Below, one piece after another: positions 2,594-15,518 of a stretch of 21,072 bases of DNA. The position numbers and the translations under genes are program-made. The notes beneath the pieces were generated by a model that was given only the letters and a program-made list of their open reading frames with translations, had not been told where the DNA came from and ran no database searches. Position 1 is the stretch's first letter. Every line of letters starts with the position of its first letter. Source of the DNA: a virus. Lineage: Duplodnaviria; Heunggongvirae; Uroviricota; Caudoviricetes. The stretch lies in IMG/VR virus record IMGVR_UViG_3300014625_000019; one strand, given 5' to 3'.

Positions 2594-3490
2594 CTATGAC
2601 TGGCTGTTTTCAGCAAGAGTCTTATCATCTAAAGAATTTATTTTCGAAATTCTTTTTAACTCATTAAGATAATCAACCTCGTTTTCCAAGAACCAATGAA
2701 GAACTTTAGAGTTACCAAGTAATTTAATAATATATGACTGGATTATAACGAATTTCAACATATCTGAACCATACTCGGTTTGAAGCTTTTTTGTTTCTTC
2801 CGAAGTTGTTGCCATTTCCTGTTCCAGACGAAGTATGGTTTTTTTTATGTCCTTTTTATAGGGAGTGTTTTTCCCTTTATTTATTATCATCGATGCCGGT
2901 GTTGCATCCAAGATGCTCATTGCAAATTTTTTACTATAATTATCAAAATTAATCATTGTACCGACTGCTTCAATTTGACGAATTGGTTTCATTTTCCTCA
3001 AAACATCAAATGTAGCCTTAGGTATTGGTTTATCAGAAAGTTTCGCAATCACACTTGGATCTATACCGTTCATCACATTAGCTTTATCTTTTATAGCATC
3101 AATAGATATGCCCAAAGCAGCACTAAGTTTTTCAATTGAAACTTTTGCTAAGGACTTGATTATCATTCTATGTTCTTCAACTACATTTATATGATTGACT
3201 TGTTTGTTAGGAGTGAACGCATCATCTATGCTCGAAAGTATACATGGAGCTTTTTCTATGCCTAAATCTTTTAAAGCCTCAACCCTCAAATGGCCATCGA
3301 GTATCTTAATGGCATCTTTATCTTTGTCATAGAACACTATTATTGGTTCAATAATACCTAAGCTTTCAATTGAGGTAACTATTTGATGGTATTTATGACT
3401 TAGCTTTACATTTTCTAACAATTCCTTAGAGGGAATTAACTTGTTAGTTTCTAAATAAATAAAATTGTCGCCAAAACGTATCTGAATCAT
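2594..3490 (-). CDS. ParB/Srx-fold DNA-binding protein (ParB-like N-terminal domain with LDGHLRVEA box, predicted HTH), 298 aa
   Basis: Start codon overlaps the stop of the upstream gene (ATGA at 3487-3490). Motif IIVFYDKDKDAIKILDGHLRVEALKDLG resembles the ParB/Srx G-x-x-R-x-x-A box. Helix-turn-helix-like segment SIEKLSAALGISIDAIKDK. Confidence 0.6.
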   Translation of the reverse strand: MIQIRFGDNFIYLETNKLIPSKELLENVKLSHKYHQIVTSIESLGIIEPIIVFYDKDKDAIKILDGHLRVEALKDLGIEKAPCILSSIDDAFTPNKQVNHINVVEEHRMIIKSLAKVSIEKLSAALGISIDAIKDKANVMNGIDPSVIAKLSDKPIPKATFDVLRKMKPIRQIEAVGTMINFDNYSKKFAMSILDATPASMIINKGKNTPYKKDIKKTILRLEQEMATTSEETKKLQTEYGSDMLKFVIIQSYIIKLLGNSKVLHWFLENEVDYLNELKRISKINSLDDKTLAENSQS

Positions 3491-4383
3491 TTTGATGCCT
3501 CTTTGTTTATTGGATTGAGGATCTGAGATGGCTGTTCTGATAGATTCTCTTGTTCAAGTATATTTTGAAAGCTTTTATTCATCATTATGATGTTAAAAAT
3601 CTCATTTACTATCAGCAAATTAGTTTTAATAAATTTAGAGTTGTTATAAACAGATTTATGTTCAGCGATACTATTTTCATAAAGCTCAATTAACTCCTCA
3701 GCAGTCATTCTTTTTGATGGTTTGTGATAATAAAACCCGGCTGCTTTTGCACCTTTATTCCCAATTGTTCGCTGATTTAGAATGTGTTTTATCTTTATAA
3801 TGTCTCGGCTTTTTATTAATTTTTTATCATATGCTTCGGTAAGAATATCTTGTGCTTCTTCAGTTTCACATCTTGCAAATTGCACTGCGAGATACAGAGG
3901 CAAATTCCCCCGTTCGACTGCAGAGAGAAGTTTATGCTCTCCCTTATCAAGAAGCATATTTATACTGCTCACCCAGTTCGATGAATACCCAGTAATCTCA
4001 CTTATTTCGGAGTCTGAAAGTCCTCTGTTTTTCATATCTTTTATTATCTGTAATAACTCATTGGAACGTGGTCTCCTCCTTGCAATGTTTTCAACCAAAC
4101 TCATAACATAAGCATCTTCTTCTGATACATCTCTTATAATTGCAGGAATAATGGTCTCACCTAATGCAACGAGAGCCTCTATTCTCCCTTGGCCACAAAT
4201 TAAAGCATATTTGAAGTCGTCTTCATCAATCGCTCTTACGCTTATAGGCTTGCTTAATCCTCTTTTTTTTATGCTTTCCTTAATTTCTTCATGCACTACC
4301 TTATTTCTAGTGCGCGGGTTAAGAAATTTTATTTTGGCAATTTCAATTTGGATTATTGGGAATTCATTTGATTCAGGCAGCAT
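3487..4383 (-). CDS. ParB/Srx-fold DNA-binding protein (ISVRAIDEDDFKYALICGQGRIEA box, predicted HTH), 298 aa; paralogue of the downstream gene
   Basis: Start overlaps the 3' end of the recombinase gene by 11 nt. SD-like GAGGG upstream of the ATG. ParB-like box ICGQGRIEALVALG. HTH-like LSDSEISEITGYSSNWVSSI. Confidence 0.6.
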   Translation of the reverse strand: MLPESNEFPIIQIEIAKIKFLNPRTRNKVVHEEIKESIKKRGLSKPISVRAIDEDDFKYALICGQGRIEALVALGETIIPAIIRDVSEEDAYVMSLVENIARRRPRSNELLQIIKDMKNRGLSDSEISEITGYSSNWVSSINMLLDKGEHKLLSAVERGNLPLYLAVQFARCETEEAQDILTEAYDKKLIKSRDIIKIKHILNQRTIGNKGAKAAGFYYHKPSKRMTAEELIELYENSIAEHKSVYNNSKFIKTNLLIVNEIFNIIMMNKSFQNILEQENLSEQPSQILNPINKEASK

Positions 4384-13165: not shown

Positions 13166-13528
13166 TTAACGACCTGCTGCGCGGAGTTTTCCGTCAGGTT
13201 CACCGGCAAGAGTCAGTAATTGTCCCTGGTCTTCCTGCAGAATAGTCAGGCGACCACCGCGATTGACATACATCGGCGTTTCGGTGGTGTCTTCTTCGGA
13301 AATTTTCCCGCGGTTAGTTGGGCGAACATATGAGAGTTTGTGTTTGATTTTCACACGGTTCTCATCAAACGGTTCGATTTCCAGGTTGAGCGAGACCTTA
13401 CCTTTGGTTTTCGTGTTCATCACACCGGAAGCGACTTCACTGAGAACTGCGCCGATTTTGGTTTCAAATACGCCGCCGTCCAGCTCCCCGATAAATGCCT
13501 GCACATCAGTACTGCGTTCGCTAGCCAT
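13166..13528 (-). CDS. yfdP: YfdP-like small prophage protein, 120 aa
   Basis: ATG at 13528 (MASERSTDVQ...) with GAGGAG SD 9 nt upstream. The longer track ORF (to 13846) extends into a GC-rich region with Arg/Cys-rich, non-protein-like translation, so the shorter start is preferred. Confidence 0.6.
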   Translation of the reverse strand: MASERSTDVQAFIGELDGGVFETKIGAVLSEVASGVMNTKTKGKVSLNLEIEPFDENRVKIKHKLSYVRPTNRGKISEEDTTETPMYVNRGGRLTILQEDQGQLLTLAGEPDGKLRAAGR

Positions 13529-13576
13529 TTTGCTGCTCCTCATCATATCGACCCTGCAAGGTCGGTTAGTTTCTCC

Positions 13577-13665
13577 ACAAAACAGAGAAGAACACCTGCG
13601 GTGACTGCCGCCCGGATGGATTGGGTTATGAGCCCGTCGTCCGGTGATGCTCTTCTCTGTTTTGT
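13577..13665. repeat. Long inverted repeat (18-bp arms, 17 of 18 complementary) enclosing a 53-nt GC-rich segment; potential large hairpin
   Basis: ACAAAACAGAGAAGAACA (13577-13594) pairs with TGCTCTTCTCTGTTTTGT (13648-13665). Lies in an apparently non-coding GC-rich segment upstream of yfdP. Confidence 0.5.
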
Positions 13666-13929
13666 AAAAAGGACGGTACCAGCCGGAAGCAAGGGTACAA
13701 GCTGGTACCGCCAGGACTACACACAGCATAAAGTTGTGGTGCCGGGTGCCTCCCGGTGCCTGGCGAAGGTTGCACACCAGGCGGGTGGGTATCCACAGAA
13801 GGTCGACTGTCAGCCTCAACCTTAACCCGCGTGCGCTGAGCCGCATTCACCACAACGCTAAGGATTCTCTCTGGTTGAAAATACTTAGCTGTTATGTGCC
13901 TGCTTTTAGCCACATCAGGCGAGGTGGAC

Positions 13930-13981
13930 CTGGTTATTCCCCAACAACAAGGATTCGGTTAATCTGGTTATCCCCAACAAC
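13930..13981 (+). repeat. Two direct repeats CTGGTTAT(T)CCCCAACAAC separated by 15 nt, immediately upstream of the 13997 start codon; possible regulator binding sites
   Basis: Copies at 13930-13948 and 13964-13981 differ by a single extra T. Confidence 0.5.
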
Positions 13982-13996
13982 GCAAAAGGAAAAGAA

Positions 13997-14431
13997 ATGT
14001 CCGGTAATATCTACACGCTGTACAAATCCCACTGTGAAAATGTTGGAAAGTATCGGGGCATTGAAATCAGTGGGGTAGTGTCATCAGTCGAAATAAGCAA
14101 AGTGGAATCAAGGGCAACATTACTTACTCTTCTGGACCTTGTCTTACATGAGCACCGGAAGAAATTCGGCACTCCCTATAATCAGTTGAATGGGAAAAAG
14201 GCTCTGGTTCACCTTATTCTGATGAAGCATCACTGGATGCCAAAACAGATTAATGAGATGAAATTTGATGAACTTCTTCTTTCAATTCAGGATGAACTCA
14301 CACTTGATAAAATAAGCGTAACCGCCCAGAAATTTTTAGATTATCGAGACTGGAGATCACAAATTCATCACTTTGATGATTTTGACGAAAATGAATGGGA
14401 TCCTAATTTGTCTGCACAATATCTAAAGTAA
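13997..14431 (+). CDS. Hypothetical protein, 144 aa
   Basis: ATG with AAGGA SD upstream. Protein-like composition. 3' end overlaps a convergent minus-strand gene by 29 nt. Confidence 0.5.
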   Translation: MSGNIYTLYKSHCENVGKYRGIEISGVVSSVEISKVESRATLLTLLDLVLHEHRKKFGTPYNQLNGKKALVHLILMKHHWMPKQINEMKFDELLLSIQDELTLDKISVTAQKFLDYRDWRSQIHHFDDFDENEWDPNLSAQYLK

Positions 14432-14609
14432 CATCCTGTGATAAAACCGTGATTTCCTGATCCAGTTTTTTTAAGGAGTCTATTGTTTCCTGTCGATAAG
14501 ACAGCACTTCACGAAGCTGGTTTATAGCTGCCAGCTTCTTTGCCATCCACTCGTAAATTTCCTCATTTGTGTATCCGGGCGCGACGATTTTGGGTTCTGT
14601 TTTGTGCAT
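14403..14609 (-). CDS. Hypothetical small protein, 68 aa, first gene downstream of the putative leftward operator region
   Basis: ATG at 14609 with strong GAGGAGG SD 6 nt upstream. Helical/coiled-coil-like composition. Confidence 0.5.
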   Translation of the reverse strand: MHKTEPKIVAPGYTNEEIYEWMAKKLAAINQLREVLSYRQETIDSLKKLDQEITVLSQDVTLDIVQTN

Positions 14610-14668
14610 TTCACACCTCCTCAAGTTATCAGTTACTTGTTGATGGGGACCAGATTGTTAAAGAGCTA

Positions 14669-14691
14669 AGCGTCCTGTAGGGCGCTTTTTT
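14669..14691 (+). terminator. Rho-independent terminator-like hairpin plus T6 on the plus strand
   Basis: AGCGTCC-TGTA-GGGCGCT stem (7 bp including one G-U) followed by TTTTTT. No annotated plus-strand gene ends nearby, so it may terminate read-through from the 13997 gene or a small RNA. Confidence 0.4.
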
Positions 14692-14771
14692 GTTGCTAAC
14701 GAATCATCCTGGACTTTATATGCCCCAGGCGGCTACTTCGTGGGCGTCCTGCCTGTTTGTTGTTTCTCTTG

Positions 14772-14843: not shown

Positions 14844-15518
14844 TTAGGCTTTGATTTTGTATCTTCTTGGTTTTCCTGAGAAAATCACAGTTCCAATTAT
14901 AGAGCAATTACCGTTGATCTTAATGTAAGGCTCAGGCCAGTTTGGGTTTAACGCTTTGAGATAACGCTGTGTCCCATCTTCTATCAACCTTTTGAAGGTG
15001 GTTTCACCTGTATCGTGCATCAATGCAATAACGTCGTCACCGTGGCAGGCAGGTACTTCAGGATCGACAAAAATCATGTCTCCCGGGCGGTACTCATCAA
15101 TCATTGAATCACCTATCACCCGCAAGATATAAGTCATTTCCCCACAGGGTACAGGGCAGGGATACGTTTCTGCTGTGCTCAAATCAACCTCAGAATATCC
15201 AACTTCTTTCCATGCTCCGGCCTGTACCCATGATATGACAGGGACTAATGTGATTTGTTTATTAGTGATTGAAACATCAGGTTTTTTTGTGATGTTCGTT
15301 GTCTGGTGTTCTTGATCGAGCCATCCGACAGGCAGGTCGAAACATTTTTCGATGTGTCGTGCCATGCTGTCACCGATATTTTTAGTAGCACCATCTCCCA
15401 TAAACCTGCTGGTCTGGGTTGGCTCGCGATCAATCATAGTGGCAAAGGAAGAATTCCCGCCAACACCATCTCTCAGTTTTCTGGCGTTAGACCGCCGGAT
15501 GTCATGGATTGTTTTCAT
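14844..15518 (-). CDS. cI: CI-like phage repressor with C-terminal LexA/S24-type autopeptidase domain
   Basis: C-terminal region aligns with lambda CI motifs (VISWVQAGAWKE vs VFSHVQAGMF; GDSM vs GNSM; TTFKRLIEDGTQRYLKALNPNWP vs [23 protein letters not shown]). Divergent from the cro-like gene across an operator region. Confidence 0.85.
   Translation of the reverse strand: MKTIHDIRRSNARKLRDGVGGNSSFATMIDREPTQTSRFMGDGATKNIGDSMARHIEKCFDLPVGWLDQEHQTTNITKKPDVSITNKQITLVPVISWVQAGAWKEVGYSEVDLSTAETYPCPVPCGEMTYILRVIGDSMIDEYRPGDMIFVDPEVPACHGDDVIALMHDTGETTFKRLIEDGTQRYLKALNPNWPEPYIKINGNCSIIGTVIFSGKPRRYKIKA

What the first reader, a model, noticed from the sequence alone, without database searches (positions are those of the whole stretch)
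13529..13996. GC-rich, apparently non-coding segment of about 470 bp with nested hairpins and direct repeats
This stretch is visibly more GC-rich than its flanks. Every ORF through it gives Arg/Pro/Cys-rich, non-protein-like translations. It contains an 18-bp near-perfect inverted repeat (13577-13594 with 13648-13665) enclosing 53 nt, a 9-bp-stem hairpin GGTACCAGC...GCTGGTACC (13676-13709), a small hairpin just upstream of the yfdP SD (13549-13564), and two CTGGTTAT(T)CCCCAACAAC direct repeats abutting the 13997 start. This is more structure than a simple divergent promoter needs. It may be a structured non-coding RNA, a long regulated leader for the yfdPQR operon, or an antitermination/processing site.
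Basis: seen in the sequence. Interest (0 to 1): 0.55.

Follow-up and report, generated by a model that had tools for sequence, protein, structure and literature searches.

The report
Structured prophage small RNA, not protein
The GC-rich "non-coding" stretch is a real, heavily folded small-RNA locus of a lambdoid prophage. It is a divergent relative of the known phage RNAs STnc100/PasD and DicF, and genome pipelines mislabel it as a protein (YmfH). It is interesting, but it belongs to a known kind.

Summary
Region 13529-13996 is GC-rich (0.59 against about 0.40-0.49 in the flanks), lacks credible ORFs and folds far better than chance (z -6.3).

It is not one element. It is a string of RNA modules on the minus strand, in the early-left (pL) operon of an e14/SfV-type lambdoid prophage.
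- **Core, 13856-13733:** a ~125-nt pseudoknotted domain that aligns end to end with Rfam STnc100 (42.4 bits, E 1e-7, just under the 47-bit cut-off). Compensatory changes in 61 non-redundant relatives support helices P1, H1, P2, H4 and H5. They also support a pseudoknot that the Rfam structure line shown here and the RNAalifold-based published structure do not include.
- **Downstream of the core:** a conserved single-stranded seed (UGCUGUGUGUAGUC), then a DicF-like 12-bp terminator. Next comes a 25-bp hairpin with a three-way junction that carries an initiator-tRNA-like anticodon arm, and last the yfdP leader.
- **ORF calls:** the ORFs annotated here (K-12 "YmfH"; "frameshifted hypothetical protein") are artefacts.

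Best reading: a prophage sRNA gene of the STnc100/PasD/long-DicF kind, followed by an RNase III-type processing hairpin. It is a new member of a known kind. What the folded domain does, and how the RNA gets its 5' end, remain unknown.

The parts
13733..13856 (-). Pseudoknotted 5' domain ('body') of the sRNA, STnc100 type. P1 GUUGUGGUG 13856-13848 pairs with CACCACAAC 13741-13733. AAU lies at 13847-13845. H1 is 13844-13829 (5 bp with a bulged A). P2 pairs GGG 13828-13826 with CCC 13785-13783. H4 pairs GCCUGGUG 13782-13775 with CGCCAGGC 13765-13758. H5 is CCGGG-AGGCA-CCCGG at 13756-13742.
   Evidence: Full-length match to Rfam RF02076. Coordinates. P1, H1, P2 and H5: 96.4% of cells paired against 80.8% when shuffled (0 of 500), and 11 pairs with changes on both sides. 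H4 has 47 distinct stems among 61 representatives.
13817..13823 (-). Pseudoknot 5' strand AAGGUUG. It pairs with the H4 loop.
   Evidence: There are 40 distinct complementary helix sequences at the equivalent position in 61 representatives. 44 of 61 score >=6, against 10.5% (maximum 20%) when loops are swapped between sequences.
13766..13772 (-). Pseudoknot 3' strand CAACCUU, inside the loop of H4.
13713..13732 (-). Single-stranded linker and candidate seed UUUAUGCUGUGUGUAGUCCU.
   Evidence: The core GCUGUGUG(U/A)AG is kept in E. coli, Salmonella, Cronobacter and Klebsiella phages while the adjacent terminator stems change. The same seed sits in the dicF slot of Rac/Qin-type loci.
13666..13712 (-). 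Rho-independent terminator. Stem GGCGGUACCAGC 13712-13701 pairs with GCUGGUACCGUC 13683-13672. The loop is 17 nt and the U5 run lies at 13670-13666. It is DicF-like.
   Evidence: The loop varies and the stem is kept between the window and e14. Stems covary among relatives. Weak DicF model hit at 13671-13725 (15.9 bits).
13857..13889 (-). 5' hairpin directly before P1 (GCUAAGUAUUUUC / GAGAAUCCUUAGC).
   Evidence: Inverted repeat I3. ST64B and phiES15 have hairpins of different sequence at the same place.
13890..13927 (-). Conserved 38-nt upstream block CCACCUCGCCUGAUGUGGCUAAAAGCAGGCACAUAACA. Its role is unresolved: a promoter, a processing signal, or a relic of a neighbouring unit.
   Evidence: Kept in e14, phiES15, Klebsiella Kp4866-6 and Salmonella F1055 while the flanks differ. 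A mosaic breakpoint lies at 13927. No sigma-70-like promoter was found.
13577..13665 (-). Long hairpin of about 25 bp topped by a three-way junction, between the terminator and yfdP. It is a candidate RNase III-type processing or leader element for read-through transcripts.
   Evidence: z -8.4. All 25 stem pairs are kept in 14 variants, with several G-U pairs and 4 compensated pairs. The stem also takes in the terminator's U tract.
13619..13638 (-). Tip of arm A, GACGGGCUCAUAACCCAAUC. 14 nt are identical to the anticodon stem-loop of initiator tRNA-fMet (GGG/CCC stem, loop CUCAUAA).
   Evidence: GGG/CCC and U-CAU are kept in the Salmonella and Klebsiella phage copies and in related motifs of P1-like phages.
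13529..13576 (-). yfdP leader. It holds GGAGAAAC, the small hairpin 13564-13549 and the Shine-Dalgarno GAGGAG at 13541-13536. The yfdP ATG is at 13528.
   Evidence: The segment 13530-13713 is shared as a unit by many phages.
13930..13981 (+). Two direct repeats, CTGGTTATTCCCCAACAAC (13930-13948) and CTGGTTATCCCCAACAAC (13964-13981), in the divergent control region ahead of the ECs1072-family gene. They are not part of the RNA.
13166..13528 (-). yfdP, the first gene downstream of the RNA modules.
13997..14431 (+). ECs1072-family gene, on the strand opposite to the RNA.
   Evidence: NCBIfam NF033230, 157.8 bits

Best explanation
The region is a non-coding RNA locus on the minus strand, in the early-left (pL) operon of an e14/SfV-type lambdoid prophage. 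The gene order is repressor, pL, ydfC-like gene, this locus, then yfdPQR. This is the slot that dicF occupies in the Qin prophage.

**The RNA.** It has the three-part build of STnc100/PasD and of the 190-nt form of DicF.
1. A ~125-nt 5' domain closed by a long-range helix P1. It contains H1, P2, H4 and H5, plus a pseudoknot between the segment after H1 and the H4 loop.
2. About 20 nt of single-stranded, highly conserved sequence, UUUAUGCUGUGUGUAGUCCU.
3. A 12-bp Rho-independent terminator with U5.

**Shown here:**
- homology to STnc100;
- the fold and its covariation;
- the terminator;
- conservation of the seed;
- the non-coding nature of the region.

**Inferred:**
- Leftward transcripts, from pL or from an unrecognised start in the conserved block 13927-13890, end at about 13666 and give an RNA of about 220 nt.
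- As for DicF, cleavage in the AU-rich linker may release a short form of about 65 nt.
- The seed, together with the terminator/U-tail Hfq module, pairs with host or phage mRNAs.
- The folded 5' domain protects or marks the RNA, or has a further unknown role.
- Transcripts that read through the terminator fold the U tract and the next ~90 nt into a 25-bp hairpin. That hairpin is a likely RNase III site which uncouples or tunes yfdPQR expression.
For: **Homology**
- Rfam STnc100 aligns over model positions 1-206 at 42.4 bits, E 1.1e-7.
- The invariant family motifs UGGUGAAU and CCGGGAGGCACCCGGCACCA are present.

**Covariation**
- P1, H1, P2 and H5: 96.4% of cells paired against 80.8% shuffled (0 of 500) and 33-51% when slid. 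50 cells change on both sides.
- H4: 47 distinct stems. Pseudoknot: 40 distinct helices, with 44 of 61 scoring >=6 against 10.5% in the swap control.

**Fold, terminator and seed**
- Fold z-scores are -6.3 and -8.4.
- The terminator stem is kept while its loop varies.
- The seed is conserved across phages of four genera and also occupies the dicF slot.

**Synteny with Qin**
- The 73-aa ORF at 14403-14624 is YdfC-like (E 1e-16).
- In the Qin-type locus, DicF lies between two related folded domains.

**Published work on relatives**
- STnc100_4 was seen on a northern blot, and 11 copies are transcribed in EDL933 (PMC5331693).
- PasD1/2 are about 173 nt, Hfq-dependent and detected by RIL-seq (PMC8550237).
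- PasD and STnc100 share ancestry (bioRxiv 10.64898/2026.05.13.724894).
- DicF is made as a 190-nt species through RNase III and a 53-nt species through RNase E (bioRxiv 10.1101/2023.04.14.536235).

**ORFs**
- The ORFs are not conserved and have no protein family.
Against: - The score is below Rfam's gathering cut-off, so the gathering scan finds nothing.
- No sigma-70-like promoter lies near the 5' end (best 6 of 12). About a third of canonical STnc100 copies, by contrast, have one ending 7-8 nt before UGGUG.
- The genomic position (early-left operon) differs from that of canonical STnc100/PasD (late region).
- No expression, Hfq-binding or target data exist for this subfamily.
- The K-12 e14 copy carries mutations in invariant H5 positions and may be dead.
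- A domain this elaborate and this conserved is more than a base-pairing sRNA normally needs. The sRNA reading may therefore be incomplete.
Confidence: 0.75

Rival explanations
1. The region is a purely cis-acting leader of the pL operon, not a stand-alone riboregulator. In this reading the folded domain, the terminator and the long hairpin act only as an attenuator and processing cassette. They gate transcription into yfdPQR (termination against antitermination, then RNase III cleavage), and any short RNA released is a by-product.
For: - There is no recognisable promoter of its own.
- In ST64B about 800 nt of non-coding sequence with two terminators lie between pL and the yfdP homologue, with no N-like gene. 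Read-through must therefore be regulated.
- Related domains without a terminator sit directly in front of dicB, kilR-like and tciA start codons.
- DicF itself has no promoter and is processed from the operon transcript (bioRxiv 10.1101/2023.04.14.536235).
- The long hairpin takes in the terminator's U tract.
Against: - The single-stranded seed is conserved more strongly than the structures around it, and across four genera. That is the signature of trans pairing.
- Close relatives (STnc100, PasD, DicF) are abundant, Hfq-associated trans-acting RNAs (PMC8550237, PMC5331693).
- The two readings do not exclude each other.
Confidence: 0.3
2. The region is a frameshifted pseudogene of a protein-coding gene (ymfH), as PGAP annotates it.
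For: PGAP calls 13543-13853 'hypothetical protein, frameshifted'. It does the same in O157:H7. K-12 e14 has an intact 103-codon ymfH over the homologous DNA.
Against: - The 103-codon frame occurs in only 3 of 31 unique close relatives, and ST64B-type copies stop after 19 codons.
- 1-nt indels separate relatives inside the 'gene'.
- There is no Pfam or NCBIfam family, and the predicted protein is Arg/Pro-rich and of low complexity.
- The K-12 frame is created by deleting one base of the invariant AGGCA loop.
- The substitution pattern is base-pair compensation, including G-U pairs.
Confidence: 0.03
3. The folded domain is a binding module in its own right, for a ligand, a protein or RNA polymerase (riboswitch-like or put-like). 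In this reading it controls whatever lies 3' of it: a seed plus terminator here, and toxic genes such as dicB, kilR and tciA elsewhere.
For: - A P1-closed, pseudoknotted fold has invariant unpaired nucleotides: AAU, the AGGCA loop and the H1 loop.
- The same domain is reused in front of different 'expression platforms'.
- In Qin-type copies P1 extends to more than 20 bp and reaches the region just before the dicB Shine-Dalgarno.
Against: - Nothing in Rfam apart from STnc100 matches; the other four hits, none to a riboswitch family, score far below their cut-offs.
- There is no similarity to HK022 putL.
- The P1 3' strand does not overlap the terminator, so no obvious switch exists.
- No ligand or partner is suggested by gene context.
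Confidence: 0.12

Closest known systems
STnc100 (Rfam RF02076; EcOnc27/sRNA103 region downstream of stx2)
   Same: - The alignment to the model runs end to end.
- Both have the core UGGUGAAU ... CCGGGAGGCACCCGGCACCA closed by P1, and the same H4, H5 and pseudoknot architecture.
- In both a short linker and a Rho-independent terminator follow the domain.
- Both are prophage-borne.
   Different: - The score is 42.4 bits against a 47-bit cut-off, where canonical copies score 54-131 bits.
- H1 has the class-B sequence (GCGGC.../...GCACGC in place of CCCCC.../...GGGGC), with three G:C pairs flipped.
- It lies in the early-left operon next to yfdP or xis, not in the late region near Q, tRNA genes, stx and lysis genes.
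- It is not in tandem arrays and has no promoter at the fixed -10 distance.
- The seed is different.
PasD1/PasD2 (EPEC E2348/69; EcOnc13)
   Same: A prophage sRNA of about 170-220 nt, reported to share ancestry and structure with STnc100. Hfq-dependent stability is shown for PasD (PMC8550237; bioRxiv 10.64898/2026.05.13.724894).
   Different: - PasD lies near Q and lpxR in the late region.
- Its mapped seed (UGUGAG) is elsewhere in the RNA and is unrelated to UGCUGUGUGUAGUC.
- I did not align PasD directly, because its sequence was not in hand.
DicF (Rfam RF00039), especially its 190-nt long form in the Qin dicBF operon
   Same: - Same operon slot, downstream of a ydfC-like gene in the pL-equivalent operon.
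- Same type of terminator (UUGGCGGUAYCAG...CCGCC + U5).
- The long DicF form likewise consists of a P1-closed folded domain, then a seed, then a terminator.
[quoted passage not shown]
   Different: - The DicF model scores only 15.9 bits against a 48-bit cut-off.
- The seed sequence differs, so ftsZ, manX and the other DicF targets are not implied.
- The 5' domain upstream of Qin DicF belongs to a third sequence class.
HK022 put RNA (cis-acting antiterminator)
   Same: A structured nascent RNA in early operons of N-less lambdoid phages that must pass intrinsic terminators.
   Different: - put is about 70 nt, two stem-loops, immediately after pL/pR.
- No sequence similarity was found.
- The element here is followed by a terminator that, judging from its relatives, does stop transcription.
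RNase III processing hairpins of phage early operons (lambda N leader, sib). This comparison rests on my own knowledge.
   Same: A near-perfect RNA duplex of 20 bp or more in the pL operon, just upstream of a coding region.
   Different: Cleavage was not tested. This hairpin also carries a three-way junction with a conserved apical motif.
tRNA anticodon-arm mimics in mRNA leaders (for example the thrS operator). This comparison rests on my own knowledge.
   Same: A leader hairpin that reproduces a tRNA anticodon stem-loop. Here 14 nt are identical to initiator tRNA-fMet.
   Different: No partner is known and there is no tRNA-like fold overall. It may be a coincidence or a relic.

Membership tests
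STnc100 (Rfam RF02076) | Covariance-model score at or above the curated gathering score (47 bits) | tested here: not met
   42.4 bits. No hit in the gathering scan.
STnc100 (Rfam RF02076) | Significant full-length alignment to the family model | tested here: met
   Model positions 1-206 of 206, E 1.1e-7 for the 901-nt search.
STnc100 (Rfam RF02076) | Conserved core UGGUGAAU ... CCGGGAGGCACCCGGCACCA closed by helix P1, with H4, H5 and the pseudoknot | tested here: met
   An exact 20-mer is shared with more than 100 canonical copies. The helices are supported by covariation.
STnc100 (Rfam RF02076) | Rho-independent terminator shortly after the folded domain | tested here: met
   12-bp stem plus U5, 20 nt after P1.
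STnc100 (Rfam RF02076) | Location in the late region (near Q, tRNA genes, stx, lysis genes), often in tandem | tested here: not met
   The window copy lies between yfdP and the immunity region. Canonical copies sit next to tRNA genes and in tandem (PMC12370729).
STnc100 (Rfam RF02076) | Discrete, abundant transcript associated with Hfq | not testable with these tools
   Shown only for relatives (PMC5331693, PMC8550237).
DicF (Rfam RF00039) | Covariance-model score at or above 48 bits | tested here: not met
   15.9 bits, E 1.5, at 13671-13725. True DicF scores 61-77 bits.
DicF (Rfam RF00039) | Position in the early-left operon downstream of a ydfC-like gene | tested here: met
   The ORF at 14403-14624 is 39% identical to YdfC, E 1e-16. 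Qin order.
DicF (Rfam RF00039) | DicF seed sequence (UUUCUGGUGACGUU) | tested here: not met
   The window has UGCUGUGUGUAGUC instead.
DicF (Rfam RF00039) | [quoted passage not shown] | not testable with these tools
   Published for Qin DicF only (bioRxiv 10.1101/2023.04.14.536235).
YmfH protein / protein-coding pseudogene | Reading frame conserved among homologues | tested here: not met
   103 codons in 3, 75 in 26 and 19 in 2 of 31 unique sequences.
YmfH protein / protein-coding pseudogene | Membership of a curated protein family | tested here: not met
   No Pfam or NCBIfam hit.
HK022 put antiterminator RNA | Similarity to putL/putR and a position immediately after pL/pR | tested here: not met
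   No BLAST similarity. The element starts about 880 nt from pL. Alignment.
Known riboswitch or ribozyme classes | Match to any Rfam family other than STnc100 | tested here: not met
   The other four hits (mir-9412, ftsZ-DE, DicF, Hairpin ribozyme) have E 0.26-7.5 and score far below their cut-offs.
tRNA gene | Cloverleaf detected by ARAGORN or the Rfam tRNA model | tested here: not met
   0 genes in the window. No tRNA hit.

The most novel reading that the evidence does not exclude
The ~125-nt pseudoknotted domain may be more than the 5' end of a base-pairing sRNA. It may be an autonomous, widely reused phage RNA module with its own molecular partner, whether a protein, RNA polymerase, a nuclease or a small molecule.

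- **Reuse in phages:** lambdoid and P1-like phages place it in front of whatever must be controlled. Examples are sRNA seeds, the toxic division inhibitors dicB and kilR, and tciA.
- **In the window:** it would work together with the downstream hairpin, whose tip copies the anticodon arm of initiator tRNA. That tip could be a decoy or sensor for factors that recognise or cleave tRNA-fMet, such as VapC-type toxins, MetRS or the 30S P site.
- **Link to a published phenotype:** phenotypes ascribed to 'YmfH' over-expression, such as triggering the retron toxin RcaT, would then be RNA effects.
Probability: 0.2. Interest if true: 0.75.

Novelty: new member of a known kind. Interest (0 to 1): 0.45.

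Why it matters
**Annotation.** Homologous DNA covering at least 80% of the region occurs in about 1,626 of 5,426 complete E. coli genomes. It is labelled 'hypothetical protein', 'frameshifted' or, in K-12, 'YmfH'. The evidence here says it is an RNA gene that Rfam-based pipelines miss by about 5 bits.

**Family structure.** The STnc100/PasD family gains a covariation-supported pseudoknot and a P2 helix. It also gains a sister subfamily in the early-left operon that shares DicF's terminator type and operon slot. This links three named phage sRNAs into one architecture: folded domain, then seed, then terminator.

**A testable target search.** A seed conserved across phages of Escherichia, Salmonella, Cronobacter and Klebsiella predicts a conserved enterobacterial target. 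That target can be looked for directly.

**Reinterpreting 'ymfH'.** Over-expression phenotypes of 'ymfH' may need to be reread as RNA effects.

Tried and rejected
- **Sigma-54 promoter.** The upstream block contains TGGC-N9-GGCA with correct -24/-12 spacing in the window. I rejected it because functional phage F1055, and e14, have one extra base in the spacer.
- **Sigma-70 promoter for the RNA.** None was found within 45 nt of P1 (best 6 of 12).
- **HK022 put homology.** No BLAST similarity was found for the element or for the pL leader. The alignment shares only CAGGAUGA.
- **PasB identity.** Rejected. PasB is an 83-nt RNA, and I did not recognise its probe sequence in the part of the window I read; I ran no search for it.
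- **tRNA gene or attP relic.** ARAGORN finds none. Identity to tRNA-fMet stops at the anticodon arm, so this is not an att-type duplication.
- **Protein reading.** There is no family and the frame is not conserved.
- **MAFFT alignments across subfamilies.** These misplace H4 and the pseudoknot. I therefore analysed those two helices with my own parser and a loop-swap control, not with the count of structure pairs.
- **Literature on 'ymfH' and locus tags.** The searches gave no transcript data for this locus.
- **EDL933 ncR1085800 and ncR1481381.** I looked at these as possible transcripts of the locus. They could not be mapped, and they lie near STAXI elements instead.
- **Not used.** I did not run the large protein-database or structure-prediction tools, because the evidence pointed away from a protein.
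Full report
**Setting**

The window is part of an e14/SfV-type lambdoid prophage.
- A cI-like repressor lies at 14844-15518 (-).
- A strong leftward promoter, TTGACA-16-CATAAT, lies at 14804-14777.
- Next comes a 73-aa ORF at 14403-14624 (-). It is 39% identical to YdfC of the Qin dicBF operon (E 1e-16).
- An ECs1072-family gene sits on the opposite strand at 13997-14431.
- The region in question follows, and then yfdP (13166-13528), yfdQ and yfdR.

The region therefore lies in the early-left operon, where dicF lies in Qin.

**Checking the observation**

- GC content peaks at 0.59 against 0.35-0.49 around it.
- The long inverted repeat has arms of 25 nt.
- The GGTACCAGC hairpin has 10 perfect pairs, or 12 with G-U.
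- The small hairpin before yfdP is present.
- The two direct repeats lie at 13930-13948 and 13964-13981.
- The minus strand of 13530-13930 folds 6.3 standard deviations better than shuffles.

**What it is**

A permissive Rfam scan gave one clear hit. Minus strand 13886-13663 aligns to the whole STnc100 model (1-206) at 42.4 bits, E 1.1e-7. That is 4.6 bits below the curated cut-off, which is why the default scan and genome pipelines see nothing.

PGAP instead calls a 'frameshifted hypothetical protein' at 13543-13853. The 90%-identical DNA in K-12 e14 is annotated as ymfH.

**Coding or not**

- The K-12 ORF starts at the GUG of the RNA's P1 helix and encodes an Arg/Pro-rich product.
- Among 31 unique close relatives, the 103-codon frame exists in 3. 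It is 75 codons in 26 and 19 codons in the two ST64B-type sequences.
- No Pfam or NCBIfam family matches.
- The K-12 frame is opened by losing one base of the AGGCA loop, which is invariant in all 61 non-redundant relatives, together with a G-to-A change in the H5 stem.

The ORFs are by-products of GC-rich structured DNA.

**The fold**

I collected relatives in two ways.
- One scan used the 3' core 20-mer. The other used the 5' core motif. Each set is unbiased for the other end of the domain.
- This gave 144 unique domains and 61 representatives below 90% identity.

RNAalifold on 16 diverse members recovered P1, H1, a new 3-bp helix P2, and H5.
- On that alignment 96.4% of cells pair, against 80.8% after shuffling (0 of 500 shuffles as good) and 33-51% when partners are slid by one to three columns.
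- 11 pairs and 50 cells change on both sides.

MAFFT misaligns H4 and the pseudoknot, so I parsed those two features per sequence.
- H4 has 47 distinct stem sequences.
- The segment just after H1 is complementary to the H4 loop in 40 different sequence versions. Examples are AAGGUUG/CAACCUU in the window, CAGUUAA/UUAACUG in Qin-type copies and AUCAGCG/UGCUGGU in canonical copies.
- 44 of 61 reach a score of 6 or more, against 10.5% (maximum 20%) when loops are swapped between sequences.

The Rfam structure line shown does not show this pseudoknot. The published structure came from RNAalifold, which does not predict pseudoknots.

**The 3' module**

After P1 come 20 unpaired nucleotides, UUUAUGCUGUGUGUAGUCCU. 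They are followed by the stem GGCGGUACCAGC/GCUGGUACCGUC and a U5 run.
- The seed core GCUGUGUG(U/A)AG is kept in phages of E. coli/Shigella, Salmonella (ST64B, F1055), Cronobacter (phiES15) and Klebsiella (Kp4866-6). Meanwhile the terminator stems change with compensation.
- The same seed-plus-terminator also occurs in the dicF slot of Rac/Qin-type loci: 18 of 61 occurrences.
- The terminator resembles DicF's, but the DicF model scores only 15.9 bits.

**Link to DicF**

In a Qin-type locus (L132) the order is as follows:
1. ydfC;
2. about 340 nt of non-coding sequence containing another P1-closed domain (GUUGUGGC ... GCUGCAAC);
3. DicF (76.7 bits);
4. a terminator-less copy of the class-B domain;
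5. the dicB start codon.

Published work shows that DicF accumulates in two forms. A 190-nt species has its 5' end made by RNase III, and a 53-nt species is made by RNase E. Neither has a promoter of its own (bioRxiv 10.1101/2023.04.14.536235).

By my coordinates, the 190-nt form equals that upstream domain plus DicF. STnc100, long DicF and the window's RNA therefore share one architecture: folded domain, then seed, then terminator.

F1055 carries the Qin-type upstream domain in exactly the window's slot, with the same upstream block, seed and hairpin.

**The second half, 13665-13529**

Blast shows that 13530-13713 travels as a unit in many phages that have a different body upstream, such as mEp460, Stx2c phages and cdtI.
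- It folds into a stem of about 25 pairs that also absorbs the terminator's U tract, topped by a three-way junction (z -8.4).
- In 14 variants all 25 pairs are kept, with several G-U pairs (strand-specific) and 4 compensated pairs.
- I infer an RNase III-type site that acts on read-through transcripts. This has not been tested.

The tip of one arm, GACGGGCUCAUAACCCAAUC, is identical over 14 nt to the anticodon stem-loop of initiator tRNA-fMet.
- The GGG/CCC stem and the U-CAU loop persist in the Salmonella and Klebsiella phage copies and in related motifs of P1-like phages.
- The defective e14 copy is degenerate.
- No tRNA gene is present.
- I regard this as a lead, not a finding.

**How the RNA starts is unresolved**

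- About a third of canonical STnc100 copies have TTGACA-17/18-TAAATT ending 7-8 nt before UGGUG. The window has nothing comparable.
- A 38-nt block (13927-13890) is conserved in five phage lineages. It ends at a mosaic breakpoint.
- The block resembles a degenerate H5 plus P1-3' end of a lost neighbouring unit.
- The RNA may, like DicF, be processed from pL transcripts.

**Direct repeats**

They are real and are conserved even where the gene downstream differs. They lie upstream of the conserved block and belong to the divergent control region. Their binding partner is unknown.

**Comparison with what is known**

The element works like STnc100/PasD and long DicF.
- It meets the structural criteria of STnc100.
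- It fails the curated score and the usual genomic position.
- It is not DicF proper, PasB, a put RNA, a known riboswitch or a tRNA.

I file it as a new, divergent member of the STnc100 kind. It carries a DicF-type 3' end and sits in the early-left operon.

**Verdict**

The element is real and widespread: about 30% of complete E. coli genomes carry it. It is mis-annotated as protein. The new points are an unrecognised subfamily, the pseudoknot and the architectural link to DicF. The kind of element is already known, hence the moderate interest score.

Noticed in passing
window 14700-14770 (-): The first ~70 nt of the pL transcript (AACAGGCAGGACGCCCACGAAGUAGCCGCC...GGAUGAUUCG) are conserved in the window, e14 and ST64B. 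One stem covaries: CCUGG/CCAGG, CCGG/CCGG and CCCGG/CCGGG. The position matches that of HK022 putL, but there is no real sequence similarity. It could be a different cis-acting antiterminator or leader.
   Followed up: partly
window 13619-13638 (-): 14 nt are identical to the anticodon stem-loop of initiator tRNA-fMet (three G:C pairs, loop CUCAUAA), at the tip of the long hairpin. Salmonella and Klebsiella phage copies, and related motifs of P1-like phages, keep it with small changes. The e14 copy is degenerate.
   Followed up: partly
L132 4240-4390 (Qin-type locus) and other loci: A terminator-less copy of the same folded domain lies between the DicF terminator and the dicB start codon. In other loci it lies before kilR-like and other small ORFs. 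Its P1 extends to more than 20 bp and reaches the sequence just before the Shine-Dalgarno. It is not annotated, and Rfam finds nothing at gathering thresholds.
   Followed up: partly
L132 4060-4170: A third sequence class of P1-closed domain (GUUGUGGC ... GCUGCAAC) lies just upstream of Qin DicF. By position it corresponds to the 5' part of the published 190-nt DicF species. The same class sits in the window's slot in Salmonella phage F1055 (L248).
   Followed up: partly
L125 2995-3130 (P1-like phage SJ46); short hits also in P1 and P7: P1-like phages carry the class-B domain directly upstream of tciA, downstream of tRNA-Asn and tRNA-Thr. P1 shows a compensatory change there (GUUGCGGUG/CACCGCAAC).
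   Followed up: partly
L247 ~2870-2990, L248 ~2820-2940, L032, L125 2705-2795: Some relatives have a larger 5' domain before the body. It contains hairpins with perfect tRNA T-arm-like loops (CUGGUUCGAUUCCAG, GUCCGUUCAAUUCGGAC, GAGGGUUCGAAUCCCUA). Canonical copies also lie next to tRNA genes. Together this hints at a tRNA-derived origin for these RNA arrays.
   Followed up: no
L002 4002-4313 (K-12 e14 ymfH): The K-12 copy has lost one base of the invariant AGGCA loop and has a G-to-A change in the H5 stem. These changes create the 103-codon 'ymfH' ORF. The K-12 copy is probably decayed. The published report that ymfH over-expression triggers the retron toxin RcaT (bioRxiv 10.1101/2020.06.22.160242) could reflect the RNA.
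   Followed up: partly
loci L003-L122: About a third of canonical STnc100 copies have a sigma-70-like promoter (TTGACA-17/18-TAAATT) whose -10 ends 7-8 nt before UGGUG. In those copies the RNA would start at the P1 helix. Canonical copies also form tandem arrays of two or three.
   Followed up: partly
window 13930-13981 (+): The two 18-19-nt direct repeats are kept in Salmonella phage F1055 and in loci where the downstream gene is not the ECs1072 family. e14 and phiES15 keep one degenerate copy. This looks like an operator-type site with no known binding protein.
   Followed up: partly
window 14403-14431 and 14668-14687: The ECs1072-family gene (+) and the ydfC-like gene (-) overlap tail to tail by 29 nt. 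A GC-rich hairpin with T runs on the plus strand (14668-14687) lies inside the pL leader and may act as a terminator for rightward transcripts.
   Followed up: no
L249 (O157:H7 F1273) 3475-3794: In O157:H7 the same RNA locus lies next to yfdR, with yfdP and yfdQ missing, in a prophage at tRNA-Thr. It is again annotated 'hypothetical protein, frameshifted'.
   Followed up: yes
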